Below are positions 46,015 to 61,798 of a stretch of DNA of 64,000 nt, piece by piece. Within the stretch, counting starts at the first letter, position 1. Each line of letters begins with the position of its first letter. This DNA comes from Hydrolagus colliei (lineage: Eukaryota), in contig CM068750.1 in the NCBI GenBank assembly GCA_035084275.1, positions 7,688,001 to 7,752,000 on the forward strand, written 5' to 3'. The notes beneath the pieces were generated by a model that did not search any database, was not told where the DNA came from, and saw only the letters and a list, made by a program, of their open reading frames with translations. Position numbers and translations under genes: made by a program.

Positions 46015-46206
46015 TCATTTCTTTTTTGCAAAAAGGCTGAATCTTTTCTCCTTGTCCTTTTTGCCAGGACTTGTTTCAGGAGCAATGGTGGGTGGGAGTG
46101 GTAGGGTATGTGCCCTGACCTCCCCTTGTCCTGCGCTTTGGAGCTGTGGTTCATCATTCTCCGCGATGGCTGCGGTCAGATTCTGGATCCAGTTATTCAT
46201 CTCCTC
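46015..46206 (-). CDS. SPTB: Terminal coding exon of long (PH-containing) beta-spectrin isoform
   Basis: ttgttcttctag|GAG GAG ATG ... TGA. Encodes EEMNNWIQNL...KKDKEKRFSLFAKKK*, the canonical beta-spectrin C-terminus. Confidence 0.95.
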   Translation of the reverse strand, partial: EEMNNWIQNLTAAIAENDEPQLQSAGQGEVRAHTLPLPPTIAPETSPGKKDKEKRFSLFAKKK

Positions 46207-46458: not shown

Positions 46459-46501
46459 CTCATCCTTGCCGTGGAACAGGTATTCACTTCCACTGCTCAA
46501 T
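46459..46501 (-). CDS. SPTB: Beta-spectrin PH-domain exon (43 nt, phase 2/0)
   Basis: Not in the ORF track: gtattgcag|A TTG AGC AGT GGA AGT GAA TAC CTG TTC CAC GGC AAG GAT GAG|gtgagt = LSSGSEYLFHGKDE. Confidence 0.93.
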
Positions 46502-47623: not shown

Positions 47624-47797
47624 CGGAGTTTAAACACATGTTTCTTCTTCTTATAGTCAGCAGCCACTTCACATGTGGCACCTTTCAGATTCAAAGGTTC
47701 CGCTCCGTGGTATGTTACACCTGCGCTACAGTTCTTTGGGTCCTTATAGAAGCTAAGTTCTCCTTTCTTCAGGGCACAATATAAGGTAGTCCAGGAT
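47624..47797 (-). CDS. SPTB: Beta-spectrin PH-domain exon (174 nt, phase 2/2)
   Basis: cccag|A TCC TGG ... CTC CG|gtgagt. Encodes SWTTLYCALKKGELSFYKDPKN...YHGAEPLNL...YKKKKHVFKL(R). Confidence 0.95.
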
Positions 47798-48073: not shown

Positions 48074-48348
48074 CTGTTGGATGCCTTCTTATTTGGTCCA
48101 TCTAGTTCATGCTTGCGTCCCAGGTATCCCTCCAATTGGGCAGTGTGGTCTCTAGGTGTTAGCACTGGCAGTGTAGATGCAAATCTAGATGTCTCAGGTC
48201 CCTGTTCTGGCAATATCAAGGGTGGGGGCCTCATGGCCTTTTCACGAGGTTTTTCTTCAATTTCCGATTTATCTTCAGTCTCCAATGTCTTTTCTTCTGG
48301 ACTGTCAGTGCCATTTACTAGGACGGAAAGAGTTTCTGATGTCGTTAC
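48074..48348 (-). CDS. SPTB: Beta-spectrin exon (275 nt, phase 0/2), linker and start of PH domain
   Basis: tttttccatcag|GTA ACG ACA ... AAC AG|gtgaat. Encodes VTTSETLSVLVNG...PRDHTAQLEGYLGRKHELDGPNKKASN(R); EGYLGRKH..GPNKKASNR is SPTB-type. Confidence 0.92.
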
Positions 48349-51300: not shown

Positions 51301-54300
51301 GCTCCTCCACATGTTTATGTTTAAGTGCAAGGCAAAAGACTGAAGTGGATTAAGAGAACACGAGTTGCTCCATTAACAGAGCAAATAACAAGCAGTAATT
51401 TTTAGTTTAATGATCTTGTTCTTTCAGTGCTAACAGGTGTGAAAATATTTCTTTTCATCAATACTTTTAAGCTCAAAATAATGATGTTTTGCAATGTCCA
51501 TTACTAAGACAGGTTAATGTTTCAAGTAAGGCTATTCAACAGAGCTGGATTATTCCTGAAGTATTATTCCAACATGTTCTATTTTTAACTAAGCTTTCCA
51601 ACATTCTTGTATTTTCTTTTCATTTACAAGACTGCTTAGAATTACACATTAAATTGTCAGTCTCCAACTAAGGTGGATGCCTAACTGGTCAGAAATAGGA
51701 ATGGCAAACGGGTACAGTGGAGGAGGCCAGATGAAGGCAAATTGCTTAGCCAGAAGGTGCTATACTCAGCCAATCTGATTTTACTTTACTGTTTATATGC
51801 AGGAATGTATTTATATATATAGCAATAACATTAAATTCACATTCCTTTTTATCCTTTGAAGTTCTCCCTTTCTTATCCTCTGTCAGAATATACATATCCC
51901 TTCCTTGGGTTTTACTTTTTACTTGACATCTTTCTTGCTTTTTGTCTTTCTTCTTTTTGCAGTCAGTTCCCCCCCTCCCTTCCCACCCATCTTGTTTTGG
52001 ATTGCTTGTTTTCTTCCCATCTATCTCGTTTTCTACAAGACCTCTTTGGAGGTGTCCGTTGCAGTATCAACATTCAGACATGCATGATTGCGGCTAATTT
52101 CACAGAGCCACCAAGTTCCAGCTTTCTGCTGGAAATCCTGCGTTGCATATCACTGAGAGAGGGGAGGCAAGCAGAGTAAAACGAAACGTTGAATTTCTAT
52201 AACCAAAATGACCCGTTGTCTTTTTCCTCCGTAATTCACAATTTCAATATCATCTCTCTCTCTCTCAACTATGAGCCAAGGATCTCTCCAGAGTGATTTT
52301 TTAAACTACTTTAAAACTCATCTCTTTGAGAAGCAGGCCAAGAAAATAGCGAAGCAACACTCAAGAAAGTCAAGGAGTTAATTCTAGTTCCCACCTACAT
52401 CTGTAGCTAACCTCGGGGGTGTTGTAAATACAGAAACCTTGCTTGTAACACTAAATCTGATAAAGTGAAAATAGAGGCCAGAGTCATTCAGAAATCTGGC
52501 TTCCATTTGCTACTAACAGCTCTGTGGAATATGAGTGCTACCATAAGGCAGACCCATCTTAGTGTCAGGTCTCAGGTGGTGCTGACACAGACACAATGCT
52601 GGTAATAATAGAGGCAGGGATTGAGCCAGCTGCATCCTTTTCTATCTCGTATCCCACCCCAATTGGCTCCTTCAAACTTTCCTTGCACCACAAAGTGCCA
52701 CAATAGTGGGGTGGGGGGGAAGAAGAAATCAAACAATAAACCTGCACCAAATGGCACACATTTTGTCTGCATGCACAGTCTGGCATGCACACATGCGCAA
52801 ACACATACAGTTTAATTCTGATGAAACAATACTAATGCCTTAGTGAATGAAACATTATTTCGATATGAATAGGCCATTCCACAAATCCATCCACGTAGAT
52901 TCAATTGCTAAGTCCAGGCCGCTAGATTCAATCTCTGCACAAGGAAGTTAGACTACGGCTTTGTGTACACTTTAAGGGGTGCAGTTCATAACATCGCAAG
53001 CTTTCTCAGTAATGTAAAAAGCATATTATATGTCCATATGCAAGTGCGACATCTCAGGAGGGACTCTACACCCTATAAAAGCTGCCACATCTGCATCAGT
53101 CAAGTGATGTCCACATATTTTCAGTCAATTCACTTCACTGTATATTCTATGAAGTGCTTTGAGATGTCTAGAAGATGTGAAAAGCGCTATATCAAATGCA
53201 AGGATTATTATTAACAGATTCACTTTAACACCTACACTCTCAATCGCTTCCACCACAATGTGCAATTAGCTCAACTAAACATTTGGCTAAATGAGGAATT
53301 GAAATGGAAAAAAAGCTTTCAACCATTTTCTCCTGCAGTAAAGATATCATGGGCATCCCTAGGGTACAGAATGCAATTCACGGCTACCGAATAACACACA
53401 TAAACCATCTCCACTAAGACTAATCGCTTGGCAATAGATTTAAAGATTTACAGGTAACAGTCAAAACAATGCTACCAAATTACATTAAATAGGTCAATGA
53501 CTGGATTAGCTAGGGCTCTTTGGCCTCAAAATATGAGATCTCAGGGGGAGCTCTATTCAGATATTAATAGTACAAAATGTTGTAGAGAAAATAAACCCAG
53601 AACATTACTGGCATAGATTTGAAACCCTCCTTCCCACTCTATGTTGACACTTCTATGAAAAAGGTGCAATTTTTAGGTTTTGTATTTCACATTTTTACAG
53701 TGAAACTCGAATAAGTCTGATCTGTATAGTTTGTATAATCTCGTAAATCTGCTCCAGAGTTTATATTCCATACACGTTTGTCATCATTCATACTTTGCTG
53801 AAGTCACATTAAATATATGGTCCCAACTGATGCGATCTATGTGAGATTTACTGTATATTTTCCATAATGCAATGCAACATTTTGAAATACTGCACAGTTA
53901 CACAACATCAAACACAAGTGCGAGCCACACCAGAGTGAAACTCAGTTTCCAACAACTCAGCTCAGCCGGTGGGGGGCGGGACAGGGTGCTTTTAATACAT
54001 ACACACACAAAAAAAAGAATTTGAGGATAAAAAGACTGGTCTTTATTTCAAACATTTGGAAAAAGAAAAGATCAGAAAAAGTCAATGAAAAGAAACGCGG
54101 CGCCTAGATTGCAGATACACACAAAAATATAGAGGAGAAAGACCTTGTGGGAAAACAAAATACCAAAGGCACAGAAAAAGGACACAACAGGAATATTGCA
54201 GAACTGTGCACATGTGTATCATATAAAAGTAGGCAGGCTACATCAACCTATAGCCTGTAGAACACAAACAGCAACACTTATTTCTGGACCAGTTCACACC

Positions 54301-55494: not shown

Positions 55495-55813
55495 TAATAA
55501 TAATAATCCTTGCATTTGATATAGCACTTTTCACATCTTATCGACGTCTCAAAGTGCTTCACAGAATATACTGTAAAGTGAACTGACTGTATATTTGTGG
55601 GAGTAATGTGGCAGCCAATTGCGCACAGCAGCGTCCCACAAACAGTTGTGGATTGAAATGATCAATTTTTATTATTGTGGGGATTTTTTTGGACAGATTA
55701 TTATCAGGCGTGTGGAGTAAGGAAACTTGCCCAAGGTTTCGCTCTGATCCGCCCTGATCTGAACACAGGTCTCACATTTGTAAGGCGAGTGCTCTAACCA
55801 CTGAGCTACAGGA
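55495..55813 (-). mobile_element. Full-length tRNA-derived SINE, same family, in SPTB intron
   Basis: Plus strand runs from taataataatccttgcatttgatatagc to gtgctctaaccactgagctacagga; collinear with the 20022 copy. Confidence 0.9.
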
Positions 55814-57170
55814 GTTACATGTGCACGTGTCAGATGAAACCGGATACAAATTTCGACATTGAAATCAGCCTTTTATAAGAATCCACGCATAGGAAGTAGT
55901 TTGCTTGTGTTACTCTCCCCACACAGAAGAACAAAGTGATGTTAACATGTGTTAAGTCAAAGCAAAAGTCAAATCAGGACTACATACAGTTAGATAGGGA
56001 ATAGCAAAGCAGACTGAGAATGGGAATTTGAAGGGTATTATCTCAATAGTGGATTCTCCACCAAAATCTGTTCACCAACCATTACATCAAAGGTCCCAGT
56101 AAACATAACTGCTTAACAAGCAACCGTTTTATATTGTATCTACCAGTCTTTATATCCCAGTGGGATTACATGAAGTGTGATTTGCTCGCTGTTTGTGTGA
56201 AGCATTCTATAATCCTAACAAACTTCGGTGAGTTTTAAAATGCAATGTACCATATGTGTAACACGGGCACTAAGAATCATCAGGCAGTTCAGTGGCTTTT
56301 CTACTGGAAGATGACCTTTATGCTTTTATAATTAACTCATATCTTATGTTAATTTCTACAATTTAAAAAAAAAAGTCTGAAAGGATATACCAATCAGATT
56401 GAAACCAATCCAGCTCCGGGCACATTTTCTGGTTTTATTCTATTGCTCTTGGTTTCTTTGAGTAACTCTTCCCAAAGATGGTGCATCATTGGTGTTAGTG
56501 TTTCTATAGTGTTGATGGAGTGGATGTATACAATAAGAGATCCCATCATTTGTTCACTTTCAATGCTATCAGTACATGGATATACTAAGCGACCTTGTAA
56601 TATCAAGTCAATTTTCCTTAACTGGGGGGAACGGAGAGAACTGAAGTGCTGTTACACCAAAGCCTCACAGAGTTCATACAACAATATTCATCAATCAGGT
56701 GAATAATCAATTAACAACTCTGTCTGCAATGTGGAAGCTTCATAAAGAGAGTAGAAACTTGTTATAATGAAGTCGGAGCAAGTCCTTAAAATTCCAACCC
56801 AAAGTTTTAATGGGCAAGATCACTTGTCACACCACACCGCCTTTTCAGCAGCCTCATGTTATAAAGTACAGTAGCACACTTATTACAGGGTTCTACTGTA
56901 ACAATGTTTGAGTCAGGCAGCTGTCTGACGGGCACATGAACTCAACACCATACTAAAAGAGTATCCCACCAAGACAGTGTTCAACATAGGTATACCAGCT
57001 ACGTATGAAAATATTCCACTGTAATCATTCAAGCATTACACACTCACTCTGGTTTGGTTTAGACCTGATTTGTACATCCATAAATTATACAACAACGAGC
57101 CCATGAGAGATGGATGAAAAGAATGAAACAAAAGGGGATAAGTGGTGCACAGAAGAAAATGGTTGGTACT

Positions 57171-57224
57171 CTACAATGCCTTGAAACGCTGGGAACTATG
57201 ACAGAATTTGGATTGGTAACTGAC
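57171..57224 (-). CDS. SPTB: Putative short-isoform C-terminal extension (donor read-through), VSYQSKFCHSSQRFKAL*
   Basis: In-frame continuation past the GTCAGT donor to TAG at 57173-57171. Same position and VS start as the human erythroid beta-I tail, as recalled. Confidence 0.65.
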   Translation of the reverse strand, partial: VSYQSKFCHSSQRFKAL

Positions 57225-57303
57225 CAGTGATTGTTCTTCTACTGTGTGAGGGGATGTTTCTGCTGCCTCTTGGGCTTCTTTCTTCCATTCTTCTCCTGGT
57301 GTC
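57225..57303 (-). CDS. SPTB: Beta-spectrin linker exon (79 nt, phase 2/0) carrying the isoform-switch donor
   Basis: Not in the ORF track: ctttatctttcag|G ACA CCA GGA ... TCA CTG|gtcagt = (K)TPGEEWKKEAQEAAETSPHTVEEQSL. It supplies the phase 2-to-0 change needed between the 58176 and 48348 exons. Confidence 0.82.
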
Positions 57304-58175: not shown

Positions 58176-58285
58176 TTTTCTTGCTGAATCTCCTCAGAGG
58201 ATTCATGCTCATGATCTTGTTGGCGTTGATCTTCCATGCTCTGTCGCATAGCCTCTTGCTGTTTTCGAATCTCCAGCAATTCCAA
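58176..58285 (-). CDS. SPTB: Beta-spectrin exon (110 nt, phase 0/2), start of post-repeat linker
   Basis: cttgcag|TTG GAA TTG ... GAA AA|gtgagt. Encodes LELLEIRKQQEAMRQSMEDQRQQDHEHESSEEIQQE(K). Confidence 0.9.
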
Positions 58286-59677: not shown

Positions 59678-59874
59678 TGTGGTGAGTCTCTCCAGTGCGG
59701 AGAACCTCTCATCCCAAGTGGCTGTTGATTTTTCAAAAGCCTCGTGTCTCTTGATCAGCTTCTCAACTTCATCTACGTTGCCACCCATATCACGGCTGTT
59801 AAGATAGGGCTCCTGAGCAATCAGCCAAGCCTCAGCAACTGAGGCATCTCTTGCAAACTGACACACTTCCAACA
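59678..59874 (-). CDS. SPTB: Beta-spectrin exon (197 nt, phase 1/0), partial repeat 17 (alpha/beta tetramerisation site)
   Basis: ctctag|TG TTG GAA ... ACC ACA|gtaagt. Encodes [25 protein letters not shown]...[27 protein letters not shown]. Confidence 0.95.
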
Positions 59875-60586: not shown

Positions 60587-60671
60587 ACAGACGTAACCAA
60601 TACCAACGTTCATCCCATTTATCCATCATGCCTGTTCTCTTCTCTGCTAGTTGGACCAGCTTTTCTTTTAT
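60587..60671 (-). CDS. SPTB: Beta-spectrin exon (85 nt, phase 0/1), end of repeat 16
   Basis: Not in the ORF track; read manually: tttttag|ATA AAA GAA ... CGT CTG T|gtaagt = IKEKLVQLAEKRTGMMDKWDERWYWLRL. Confidence 0.93.
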
Positions 60672-61183: not shown

Positions 61184-61322
61184 CTCCACAGAGGCGTGAT
61201 GCTGGTGGGCTAACATTGCCTTGCCCAAATCAATGCAAGAGGTGAAACTTTTATTCCTGGCATCAATCTCTGCCCTGATTCCCTGATGGTACTTCATCAA
61301 TAACTCCACAGAAGAGACATCT
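61184..61322 (-). CDS. SPTB: Beta-spectrin exon (139 nt, phase 2/0), repeat 16
   Basis: atgacag|A GAT GTC ... GTG GAG|gtaagt. Encodes (R)[46 protein letters not shown]. Confidence 0.95.
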
Positions 61323-61553: not shown

Positions 61554-61798
61554 CGTGGTTTCTCTTCCGTTTCAATCTGCCTCATGATGTTCTCCATCCA
61601 GGACATCAAGTCTCGGACCATGCTGAAGAAGCGGAATTTGTCCGCGGTGTCAATCAGCTGTGTGCGTCGACCGTCACATGCATCGAGAAGAGCTTTCCAG
61701 GCCTCAACCACCTCCTGCTCTTGTTTCTGGATTGCTGTGGCTTTGTCTCCCGCGTACGCTGTCTGCAAACGACCTGCGTCATCCTGAAACTGTTGTAC
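61554..61798 (-). CDS. SPTB: Beta-spectrin exon (245 nt, phase 0/2), repeat 15-16
   Basis: ttgcag|GTA CAA CAG ... CCA CG|gtatgt. Encodes [20 protein letters not shown]...[32 protein letters not shown]; VQQFQD and [11 protein letters not shown] are SPTB-like. Confidence 0.95.

What the first reader, a model, noticed from the sequence alone, without database searches (positions are those of the whole stretch)
57171..57303. Erythroid-vs-muscle beta-spectrin C-terminal switch apparently present in a cartilaginous fish, with a tail that looks like a beta-I/beta-II hybrid
Seen: the linker exon ends CTG|GTCAGT. Using the donor joins in phase to the PH cassette 8.9 kb away, while ignoring it gives VSYQSKFCHSSQRFKAL*. 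Candidate poly(A) signals follow at 56806-56811 (ATTAAA) and 56434-56439 (AATAAA). Established: human SPTB makes PH-less erythroid betaI-Sigma1 by reading through the equivalent donor (tail starting VSL) and PH-containing betaI-Sigma2 by using it. From recall, the short SPTBN1 (betaII-Sigma2) tail starts VSYRSQ. Inference: the non-consensus GTCAGT donor and the VSYxS start suggest one ancestral switch predating the SPTB/SPTBN1 split and enucleated red cells.
Basis: partly seen in the sequence, partly recalled or inferred. Interest (0 to 1): 0.7.

Follow-up and report, generated by a model that had tools for sequence, protein, structure and literature searches.

The report
Ancient short-tail switch in beta-spectrin
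A cartilaginous-fish red-cell-type beta-spectrin gene carries a splice site that, in RNA of a related species, is either used (long, lipid-binding form) or read through (short form), the known mammalian switch, and its sister gene carries a matching switch, so the switch likely predates their duplication.

Summary
The gene is the SPTB (beta-I spectrin) ortholog (tree support 100/99).

In 4 of 4 RNA-type runs of a related species, the contigs fork exactly at the donor. One branch splices to the PH cassette and the other reads through. The 17-residue tail is 14/17 identical to a whale-shark RefSeq model (XP_048456403.1), so the short form is already annotated.

The same genome's SPTBN1 has the switch at the same exon end and phase: donor GTTAGTTAC against GTCAGTTAC, with a tail 19/28 identical to the mammalian short beta-II tail. 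A shared ancestral switch is likely (about 0.75).

- The tail is not a hybrid: turtle and lizard SPTB also end SL|VSYQ.
- One RNA contig runs about 3.2 kb past the donor, through both proposed poly(A) hexamers.
- Erythroid versus muscle use could not be tested.

PH-less beta-I and beta-II forms are long known in mammals. The scan had not noted this before. Verdict: a new member of a known kind, with modest evolutionary interest.

The parts
61554..61798 (-). SPTB rod exon (spectrin repeats 15/16 region)
   Evidence: tblastn with P0100, 87%; boundaries read
61184..61322 (-). SPTB rod exon
   Evidence: tblastn 83%; boundaries read
60587..60671 (-). SPTB exon, end of repeat 16
   Evidence: AG/GT and frame; joint 59874/60587 in 4 of 4 runs
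59678..59874 (-). SPTB exon encoding partial repeat 17
   Evidence: Matches PDB 8IAH_M and 3LBX_B beta-spectrin; spliced in 4 of 4 runs
58176..58285 (-). First linker exon (110 nt, same length as in the SPTBN1 paralog)
   Evidence: joints
57225..57303 (-). Second linker exon; its 3' end is the switch point (phase 0)
   Evidence: contig fork at 57223 in 4 of 4 runs
57216..57224 (-). Dual-use donor GTCAGTTAC: splice donor, or codons V-S-Y of the short tail
   Evidence: the paralog has GTTAGTTAC at the same position
57171..57224 (-). Read-through coding tail of the PH-less isoform, 17 residues plus TAG
   Evidence: 14/17 identical to whale shark XP_048456403.1
54037..57170 (-). Extended 3' terminal exon (likely 3' UTR) of the short isoform, about 3.1 kb; its far end is approximate
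   Evidence: One 2,928-nt contig in run X1 aligns 57252 to 54037 in five pieces; shorter contigs in X2, X3 and X4 cover parts
56806..56811 (-).
   Evidence: X1, X2 and X3 contigs run through it
56434..56439 (-).
   Evidence: X1 record 2, X2 record 7, X3 record 14
54042..54047 (-). AATAAA followed by U- and GU-rich sequence; best candidate poly(A) signal for the short isoform (weak hint only)
   Evidence: the X1 contig alignment ends at 54037
48074..48348 (-). First exon of the PH cassette (long isoform), acceptor partner of donor 57225
   Evidence: Loose end at 57223 in 4 of 4 runs is the reverse complement of 48346-48317 with 2 differences in 30
47624..47797 (-). PH-domain exon (174 nt)
   Evidence: Pfam PH E 2.5e-5 and PH_9 E 6.8e-6
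46459..46501 (-). PH-domain exon (43 nt)
46015..46206 (-). Last coding exon of the long isoform, to the stop codon

Best explanation
This is the beta-I spectrin (SPTB) gene's C-terminal switch: a donor that, in RNA contigs of a related species, is both spliced to the PH cassette and read through into a 17-residue PH-less tail, and it likely descends from one switch present before the SPTB/SPTBN1 duplication. Shown: gene identity, both RNA forms in organism A, tail conservation in whale shark, and the same exon end, phase and near-identical donor in the genome's SPTBN1. Inferred mechanism: splicing at a donor weakened by a pyrimidine at +3 competes, across an 8.9-kb intron, with cleavage and polyadenylation inside that intron, probably near 54040. 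If 3'-end formation wins, the linker exon becomes a terminal exon of about 3.3 kb and the protein lacks the phosphoinositide-binding PH domain. By analogy with mammals (not tested here) the short form would be the red-cell form, and its four serines would be kinase sites. The tail is best read as a retained ancestral beta-I state, not a beta-I/beta-II hybrid.
For: Orthology: window gene inside the SPTB clade at 100/99, sister to whale shark 98/95 (23 rows, 400 columns). The repeat-17 plus PH tree agrees at lower support, 94/91, and puts the C3 paralog with SPTBN1 at 94/86. RNA: in 4 of 4 runs from 3 studies one contig carries the upstream spliced exons and ends at 57223, where two contigs continue it, one on the genomic read-through and one into the PH-cassette exon. 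That upstream contig crosses introns without a break (joints), so unspliced forms did not split it there. Conservation: whale shark tail 14/17 identical with the same length, against 14/26 for the linker before it (Fisher p 0.054). Paralog: exon sizes 197, 110, 79 vs 64, 275 vs 242, 174, 43 with identical phases, and donors GTCAGTTAC vs GTTAGTTAC. Tail codons 3-17 against the paralog's tail: 4/15 residues, BLOSUM62 14, 21/45 nt, reached by 0.17% and 0.15% of 95,948 local stop-free 17-codon stretches. The paralog's tail is 21/28 identical to sturgeon and 19/28 to bat short beta-II tails. Turtle and lizard SPTB end SL|VSYQF. The 2,148-residue chain of PDB 8IAH diverges from the long lynx form at TSP|VS, leaving a 22-residue tail.
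Against: The RNA comes from organism A, whose read-through contig differs from the window at about 10 letters in 100, not from the window's species. 'RNA' is the tool's guess, although the contigs are spliced. Contigs show neither strand, level nor true 3' ends; the four alignments stop at 54037, 54105, 54170 and 54105. 'VS' is forced by a GTNAGT donor, and 13 of the 14 BLOSUM points between the two tails come from positions 3-6, so common origin rests on few residues. The tail-versus-linker excess is not significant (p 0.054, or 0.089 without VS). Among 231 SPTB-type proteins fetched, 155 were long, 15 ended by VS read-through at this exon end, 46 had other short ends and 15 were apparent mis-models stopping after repeat 17, so the route to a PH-less form is labile. 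No teleost read-through form was in the set. No lamprey, hagfish, SPTBN2 or SPTBN4 locus was examined.
Confidence: 0.8

Rival explanations
1. The switch is real in both genes but arose twice. Each paralog independently recruited the intron behind the same inherited donor as a terminal exon, and the likeness of the tails comes from the donor consensus plus chance.
For: VS is forced by GTNAGT. Only 4 of 15 further residues match. Sauropsids reach PH-less ends by several routes, and betaIV-Sigma4 loses PH through an extra exon (PMC2174349, passages).
Against: Both donors share the rare pyrimidine at +3 and the TAC that follows. In fixed register the match is reached by about 0.2% of local controls. 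VSY persists in shark, turtle, lizard and kiwi SPTB and in the full-length SPTBN1 short tails compared.
Confidence: 0.17
2. The read-through contigs are unspliced pre-mRNA or DNA from a long, slowly spliced intron, and the short protein is not made.
For: Only contigs were available, the run type is a guess, and no poly(A) end was seen. Run X3 has low-level cover across all introns.
Against: The upstream contig joins across its introns unbroken and forks only at this donor, in 4 of 4 runs. The tail keeps its length and 14/17 residues in whale shark, where RefSeq models it as a protein end. Mammals make the equivalent protein (PMC11333264, passages).
Confidence: 0.06
3. The tail is a true beta-I/beta-II hybrid, made by gene conversion or exon exchange from SPTBN1 in cartilaginous fish.
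Against: Nucleotide identity to the genome's own SPTBN1 tail is only 21/45, and the genes lie on different contigs (C17, C3). SL|VSYQ is shared with turtle and lizard SPTB. The tail ends at residue 17, before the RRT motif at 17-19 of beta-II tails is complete.
Confidence: 0.03

Closest known systems
Mammalian SPTB betaI-Sigma1 / betaI-Sigma2 (alternative processing from within exon 32; PMC11333264, passages; PDB 8IAH chain M)
   Same: Orthologous gene. Same divergence point at the end of the linker, short tail beginning VS, long form with a PH domain.
   Different: Tail of 17 versus 22 residues. If the human tail is also 22 long, the published terminal phosphopeptide (PMC3558407 table) covers positions 7-22 and matches the window tail at 1 of 11 overlapping positions. 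Red-cell specificity and phosphorylation are not shown here.
SPTBN1 betaII-Sigma2, short C-terminal variant (PMC4016758, PMC2174349, PMC7757025, passages; Hayes 2000 and Bignone 2007 seen only as citations)
   Same: Same exon end, phase and donor type in this genome's own SPTBN1; tails share VSY-x-S and residues S10 and F14.
   Different: A different paralog. Its 28-residue tail is conserved 19-21/28 from this fish to sturgeon and mammals and carries an RRT motif that the SPTB tail lacks. That this threonine is the regulatory phosphosite is from recall.
Whale shark RefSeq model XP_048456403.1 (named 'spectrin beta chain, non-erythrocytic 1-like')
   Same: The same short isoform: tail of equal length, 14/17 identical.
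   Different: A partial computed model of 432 residues whose name points to SPTBN1 although it groups with SPTB.
betaIV-Sigma4 spectrin (PMC2174349, passages)
   Same: A PH-less conventional beta-spectrin ending shortly after repeat 17.
   Different: Made by inserting an extra exon (30B), not by donor read-through.

Membership tests
SPTB (beta-I spectrin) ortholog | Groups with named SPTB, apart from SPTBN1, in a tree of the rod | tested here: met
   100/99; 94/91 with repeat 17 plus PH
SPTB (beta-I spectrin) ortholog | Partial repeat 17, linker, PH domain and basic C-terminus in order | tested here: met
SPTB (beta-I spectrin) ortholog | Conserved gene neighbourhood | tested here: inconclusive
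   28 of the open stretches in window 1-46000 scanned against Pfam gave no match above cut-off; neighbours were not identified
betaI-Sigma1/Sigma2-type switch | Two transcripts diverge at a donor at the end of the linker, at the position equivalent to the mammalian one | tested here: met
   Fork at 57223 in 4 of 4 runs of organism A; mammalian TSP|VS versus TSP|GE
betaI-Sigma1/Sigma2-type switch | Short form ends in an intron-encoded tail without PH | tested here: met
betaI-Sigma1/Sigma2-type switch | Short form is polyadenylated inside the intron | tested here: inconclusive
   A contig reaches 54037, beside AATAAA 54047-54042, but contigs do not show true ends
betaI-Sigma1/Sigma2-type switch | Short form predominates in red cells, long form in muscle and brain | not testable with these tools
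   Runs carry no tissue record; each holds both forms
betaI-Sigma1/Sigma2-type switch | Short tail is poly-phosphorylated | not testable with these tools
   Four serines in the tail (sequence); mammalian feature from PMC11333264 and PMC3558407
betaII-Sigma2-type tail | About 28 residues with VSYRSQ start and an RRT motif at 17-19 | tested here: not met
   Window tail is 17 residues, 3/15 identical to mammalian beta-II tails beyond VS; the C3 paralog meets it (19/28)

The most novel reading that the evidence does not exclude
One dual-use nonamer (GTYAGTTAC: weak splice donor and codons V-S-Y) set up the PH-on/PH-off switch in the single beta-spectrin of early vertebrates. It has been kept in both SPTB and SPTBN1 since before the split of cartilaginous and bony fishes. 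Cartilaginous-fish SPTB keeps a near-ancestral tail that turtles, lizards and birds cut to 2-5 residues or replaced, and that mammals rebuilt into a phosphorylated tail. The 'erythroid' isoform would then be an old general switch later tuned for red cells, in which losing PH matters more than the tail's sequence.
Probability: 0.65. Interest if true: 0.4.

Novelty: new member of a known kind. Interest (0 to 1): 0.27.

Why it matters
It dates a textbook red-cell isoform switch to at least the common ancestor of jawed vertebrates, and probably to before the SPTB/SPTBN1 duplication. It also separates two things: loss of the PH domain recurs across vertebrates, while the beta-I tail itself runs from 2 to 22 residues. 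That argues against an essential ancient role for the mammalian phosphorylated tail, and contrasts with the strongly conserved beta-II tail. The interest is limited, because both mammalian switches have been known for decades and the shark short form is already a RefSeq model.

Tried and rejected
- In X1, X2 and X4 the unique parts of the intron beyond about 54000 had little or no contig cover. This is recorded here only, as cover cannot prove an end.
- Contig depths at the fork (read-through vs spliced: 63/166, 12.5/32, 7.9/13.9, 5.5/5.2) were not used as expression levels.
- The amino-acid tail of organism A could not be read: 7 of 47 differences were not shown, and no indel is listed in the tail.
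- A homolog search with the 43-residue read-through frame found no candidate. PDB and Pfam searches with it were also blank.
- Three searches of the own genome found only two conventional beta-spectrins. The C32 hit is an alpha-spectrin. The second C17 hit (L006, L011) was fetched but not analysed. SPTBN2 and SPTBN4 were not found, which does not show absence.
- The representative search gave no full-length shark SPTB. The third homolog search was filled by birds and reptiles, so amphibian, coelacanth, lungfish, teleost and cyclostome short tails were not sampled.
- A three-row alignment meant to display the mammalian tail from PDB aligned badly and was dropped.
- The tree used a C3 protein with one mis-set 43-nt exon, corrected. 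In the tree two invertebrate rows dropped out, several rows were cut at offsets that do not match fully, and SPTBN1 is unresolved there.
- Hayes 2000, Bignone 2007 and Salomao 2006 are not held. Ten paper searches showed no listing on this switch in cartilaginous fish or on its common origin. Most subscription papers, including the Baines reviews on spectrin evolution, are outside the library and may say so. No supplements were read.

Full report
Observation. On the minus strand the window holds the 3' end of a beta-spectrin gene. The exon 57303-57225 ends CTG|GTCAGTTAC in phase 0. Ignoring the donor gives VSYQSKFCHSSQRFKAL and a TAG at 57173-57171. Using it removes 8,876 nt and keeps the frame open through exons 48348-48074, 47797-47624, 46501-46459 and 46206-46015; the second of these matches Pfam PH.

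Which gene. The window lies on contig C17 of a 1.0-Gb genome. A tree of about 400 rod columns from 23 rows puts the gene in the SPTB clade at 100/99, sister to a whale shark protein at 98/95. A tree of repeat 17 plus PH from 24 rows agrees at 94/91 and puts the paralog on contig C3 with SPTBN1 at 94/86. The cartilaginous-fish reading is therefore supported. A genome this small would fit a chimaera rather than a shark (own knowledge, not tested).

RNA. No RNA run of the window's species is listed. Four RNA-type runs of a related organism A, from three studies, held a small share of the words. Laid on the window, they show the joints 59874/60587, 58285/59678 and 57302/58175 in 4 of 4 runs. In all four, the upstream contig ends at 57223 and two contigs continue it with a 30-letter overlap. 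One follows the genome through the stop codon. The other leaves it, and its loose end is the reverse complement of window 48346-48317 with 2 differences in 30, which is the start of the PH cassette. The fork sits two letters inside the intron because both continuations begin GT. The end of organism A's first linker exon resembles the window's and differs from the whale shark model, so it is a third sequence.

3' end. In run X1 one contig of 2,928 nt aligns from 57252 to 54037, across both proposed poly(A) signals; contigs of X2 and X3 also cross them. An AATAAA at 54047-54042 is followed by U- and GU-rich sequence. The four alignments stop at 54037, 54105, 54170 and 54105. Contigs do not show true ends, so a 3' UTR of about 3.1 kb is a weak hint, and use of the proximal signals by some molecules is not excluded.

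Conservation of the tail. RefSeq model XP_048456403.1 of whale shark ends in a tail of the same length, 14/17 identical, against 14/26 in the linker just before it (Fisher p 0.054). The short form is thus already annotated, under a name pointing to the wrong paralog.

The paralog. SPTBN1 on C3 has the same exon plan (197, 110, 64, 242, 174, 43 nt against 197, 110, 79, 275, 174, 43) with the same phases. At the equivalent exon end its donor reads GTTAGTTAC. In each gene this is the only donor read with a pyrimidine at +3 (1 of 10 and 1 of 6). Read-through there gives a 28-residue tail, 21/28 identical to sturgeon and 19/28 to bat and hamster short beta-II tails. In the register fixed by the donor, and leaving out the forced VS, the two tails of this genome share 4/15 residues and 21/45 nt. 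About 0.2% of 95,948 local stop-free stretches do as well. Nearly all of that score comes from positions 3-6, so common origin is likely but rests on a short match.

Not a hybrid. Among 231 SPTB-type proteins fetched, 155 were long, 15 ended by VS read-through at this exon end, 46 had other short ends and 15 stopped after repeat 17. The sample is mostly birds and reptiles, and most entries are computed models. Two assembled turtle-like transcripts and a Podarcis model end SL|VSYQF, Phrynosoma SL|VSY and kiwi EP|VSY. So SL|VSYQ is the old beta-I state. Many squamate models end SL|A or similar, and palaeognath models leave one exon earlier: the PH-less outcome recurs, while the route and tail vary. 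The mammalian chain in PDB 8IAH diverges from the long lynx form at TSP|VS and has 22 tail residues. The human terminal phosphopeptide printed in PMC3558407 (table passage) would match the window tail at 1 of 11 positions, if the human tail is also 22 residues long.

Mechanism. Shown: two RNA paths from one donor in a relative. Inferred: competition between a slightly weak donor, across a long intron, and intronic 3'-end formation decides whether the protein keeps its phosphoinositide-binding PH domain. By analogy only: red cells favour the short form, and its serines are phosphorylated. Tissue could not be tested, and each run holds both forms.

What is known. PMC11333264 (passages): Sptb makes betaI-Sigma1 (red cells, short poly-phosphorylated end) and betaI-Sigma2 (PH) by splicing from within exon 32. 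PMC4016758 and PMC7757025 (passages): long and short betaII variants. PMC2174349 (passages): betaI-Sigma1, betaII-Sigma2 and betaIV-Sigma4 all lack PH. PMC3249148, PMC2174577, PMC6546920 and PMC4735681 (passages) gave background only. Hayes 2000, Bignone 2007 and Salomao 2006 were not held and were seen only as citations. Ten searches showed no listing on this switch in cartilaginous fish or on a common origin, but the main reviews on spectrin evolution are outside the library. Four look-ups of earlier scan notes found nothing on this gene.

Verdict. A real, expressed and conserved switch of a known kind. The added value is RNA support in a cartilaginous-fish relative, a corrected 3'-end candidate, and a case that the beta-I and beta-II switches are one ancient feature. 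Interest 0.27.

Noticed in passing
window 55495-55925: A high-copy repeat of about 430 nt lies in the short isoform's likely 3' UTR and is absent from organism A's contig (11 nt there). It carries an AATAAA at 55673-55668 that could give this species an earlier poly(A) site.
   Followed up: partly
L007:2183-2333 (G000:C3:109453182-109453332): The SPTBN1 paralog has an intact betaII-Sigma2-type read-through tail of 28 residues with the RRT motif; AATAAA hexamers lie 1972, 2876 and 3902 nt into its intron. Its expression was not tested.
   Followed up: partly
P0451, P0453, P0459, P0460, P0462, P0464, P0497, P0500, P0504, P0505, P0512 (squamates): Lizard and snake SPTB models lose the PH domain with ends of one or two residues (A, MA, LD) after this same exon end, which suggests a spliced alternative last exon rather than read-through.
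   Followed up: no
P0121, P0317, P0322, P0515, P0519, P0521 (palaeognath birds): PH-less SPTB models that leave the long form one linker exon earlier, with related 7-residue ends in kiwi, ostrich, emu and tinamou.
   Followed up: no
P0100 (XP_048456403.1): The whale shark model is named 'non-erythrocytic 1-like' but groups with SPTB; several teleost entries such as P0008 and P0026 look mis-named in the same way.
   Followed up: partly
P0127, P0133 versus window 57245-57225: Teleost SPTB long forms keep EEQTL where the window's linker exon ends EEQSL, so the exon end is conserved there although no teleost read-through form was fetched.
   Followed up: no
L009-L010 (G000:C32:3629000-3648800): A compact alpha-spectrin (alpha-II-like) gene, 3' half with EF-hand exons.
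   Followed up: no
window 1-46000: No clear protein-coding exon was found downstream of the long isoform's stop; 28 of the longer open stretches had no Pfam match above cut-off.
   Followed up: partly
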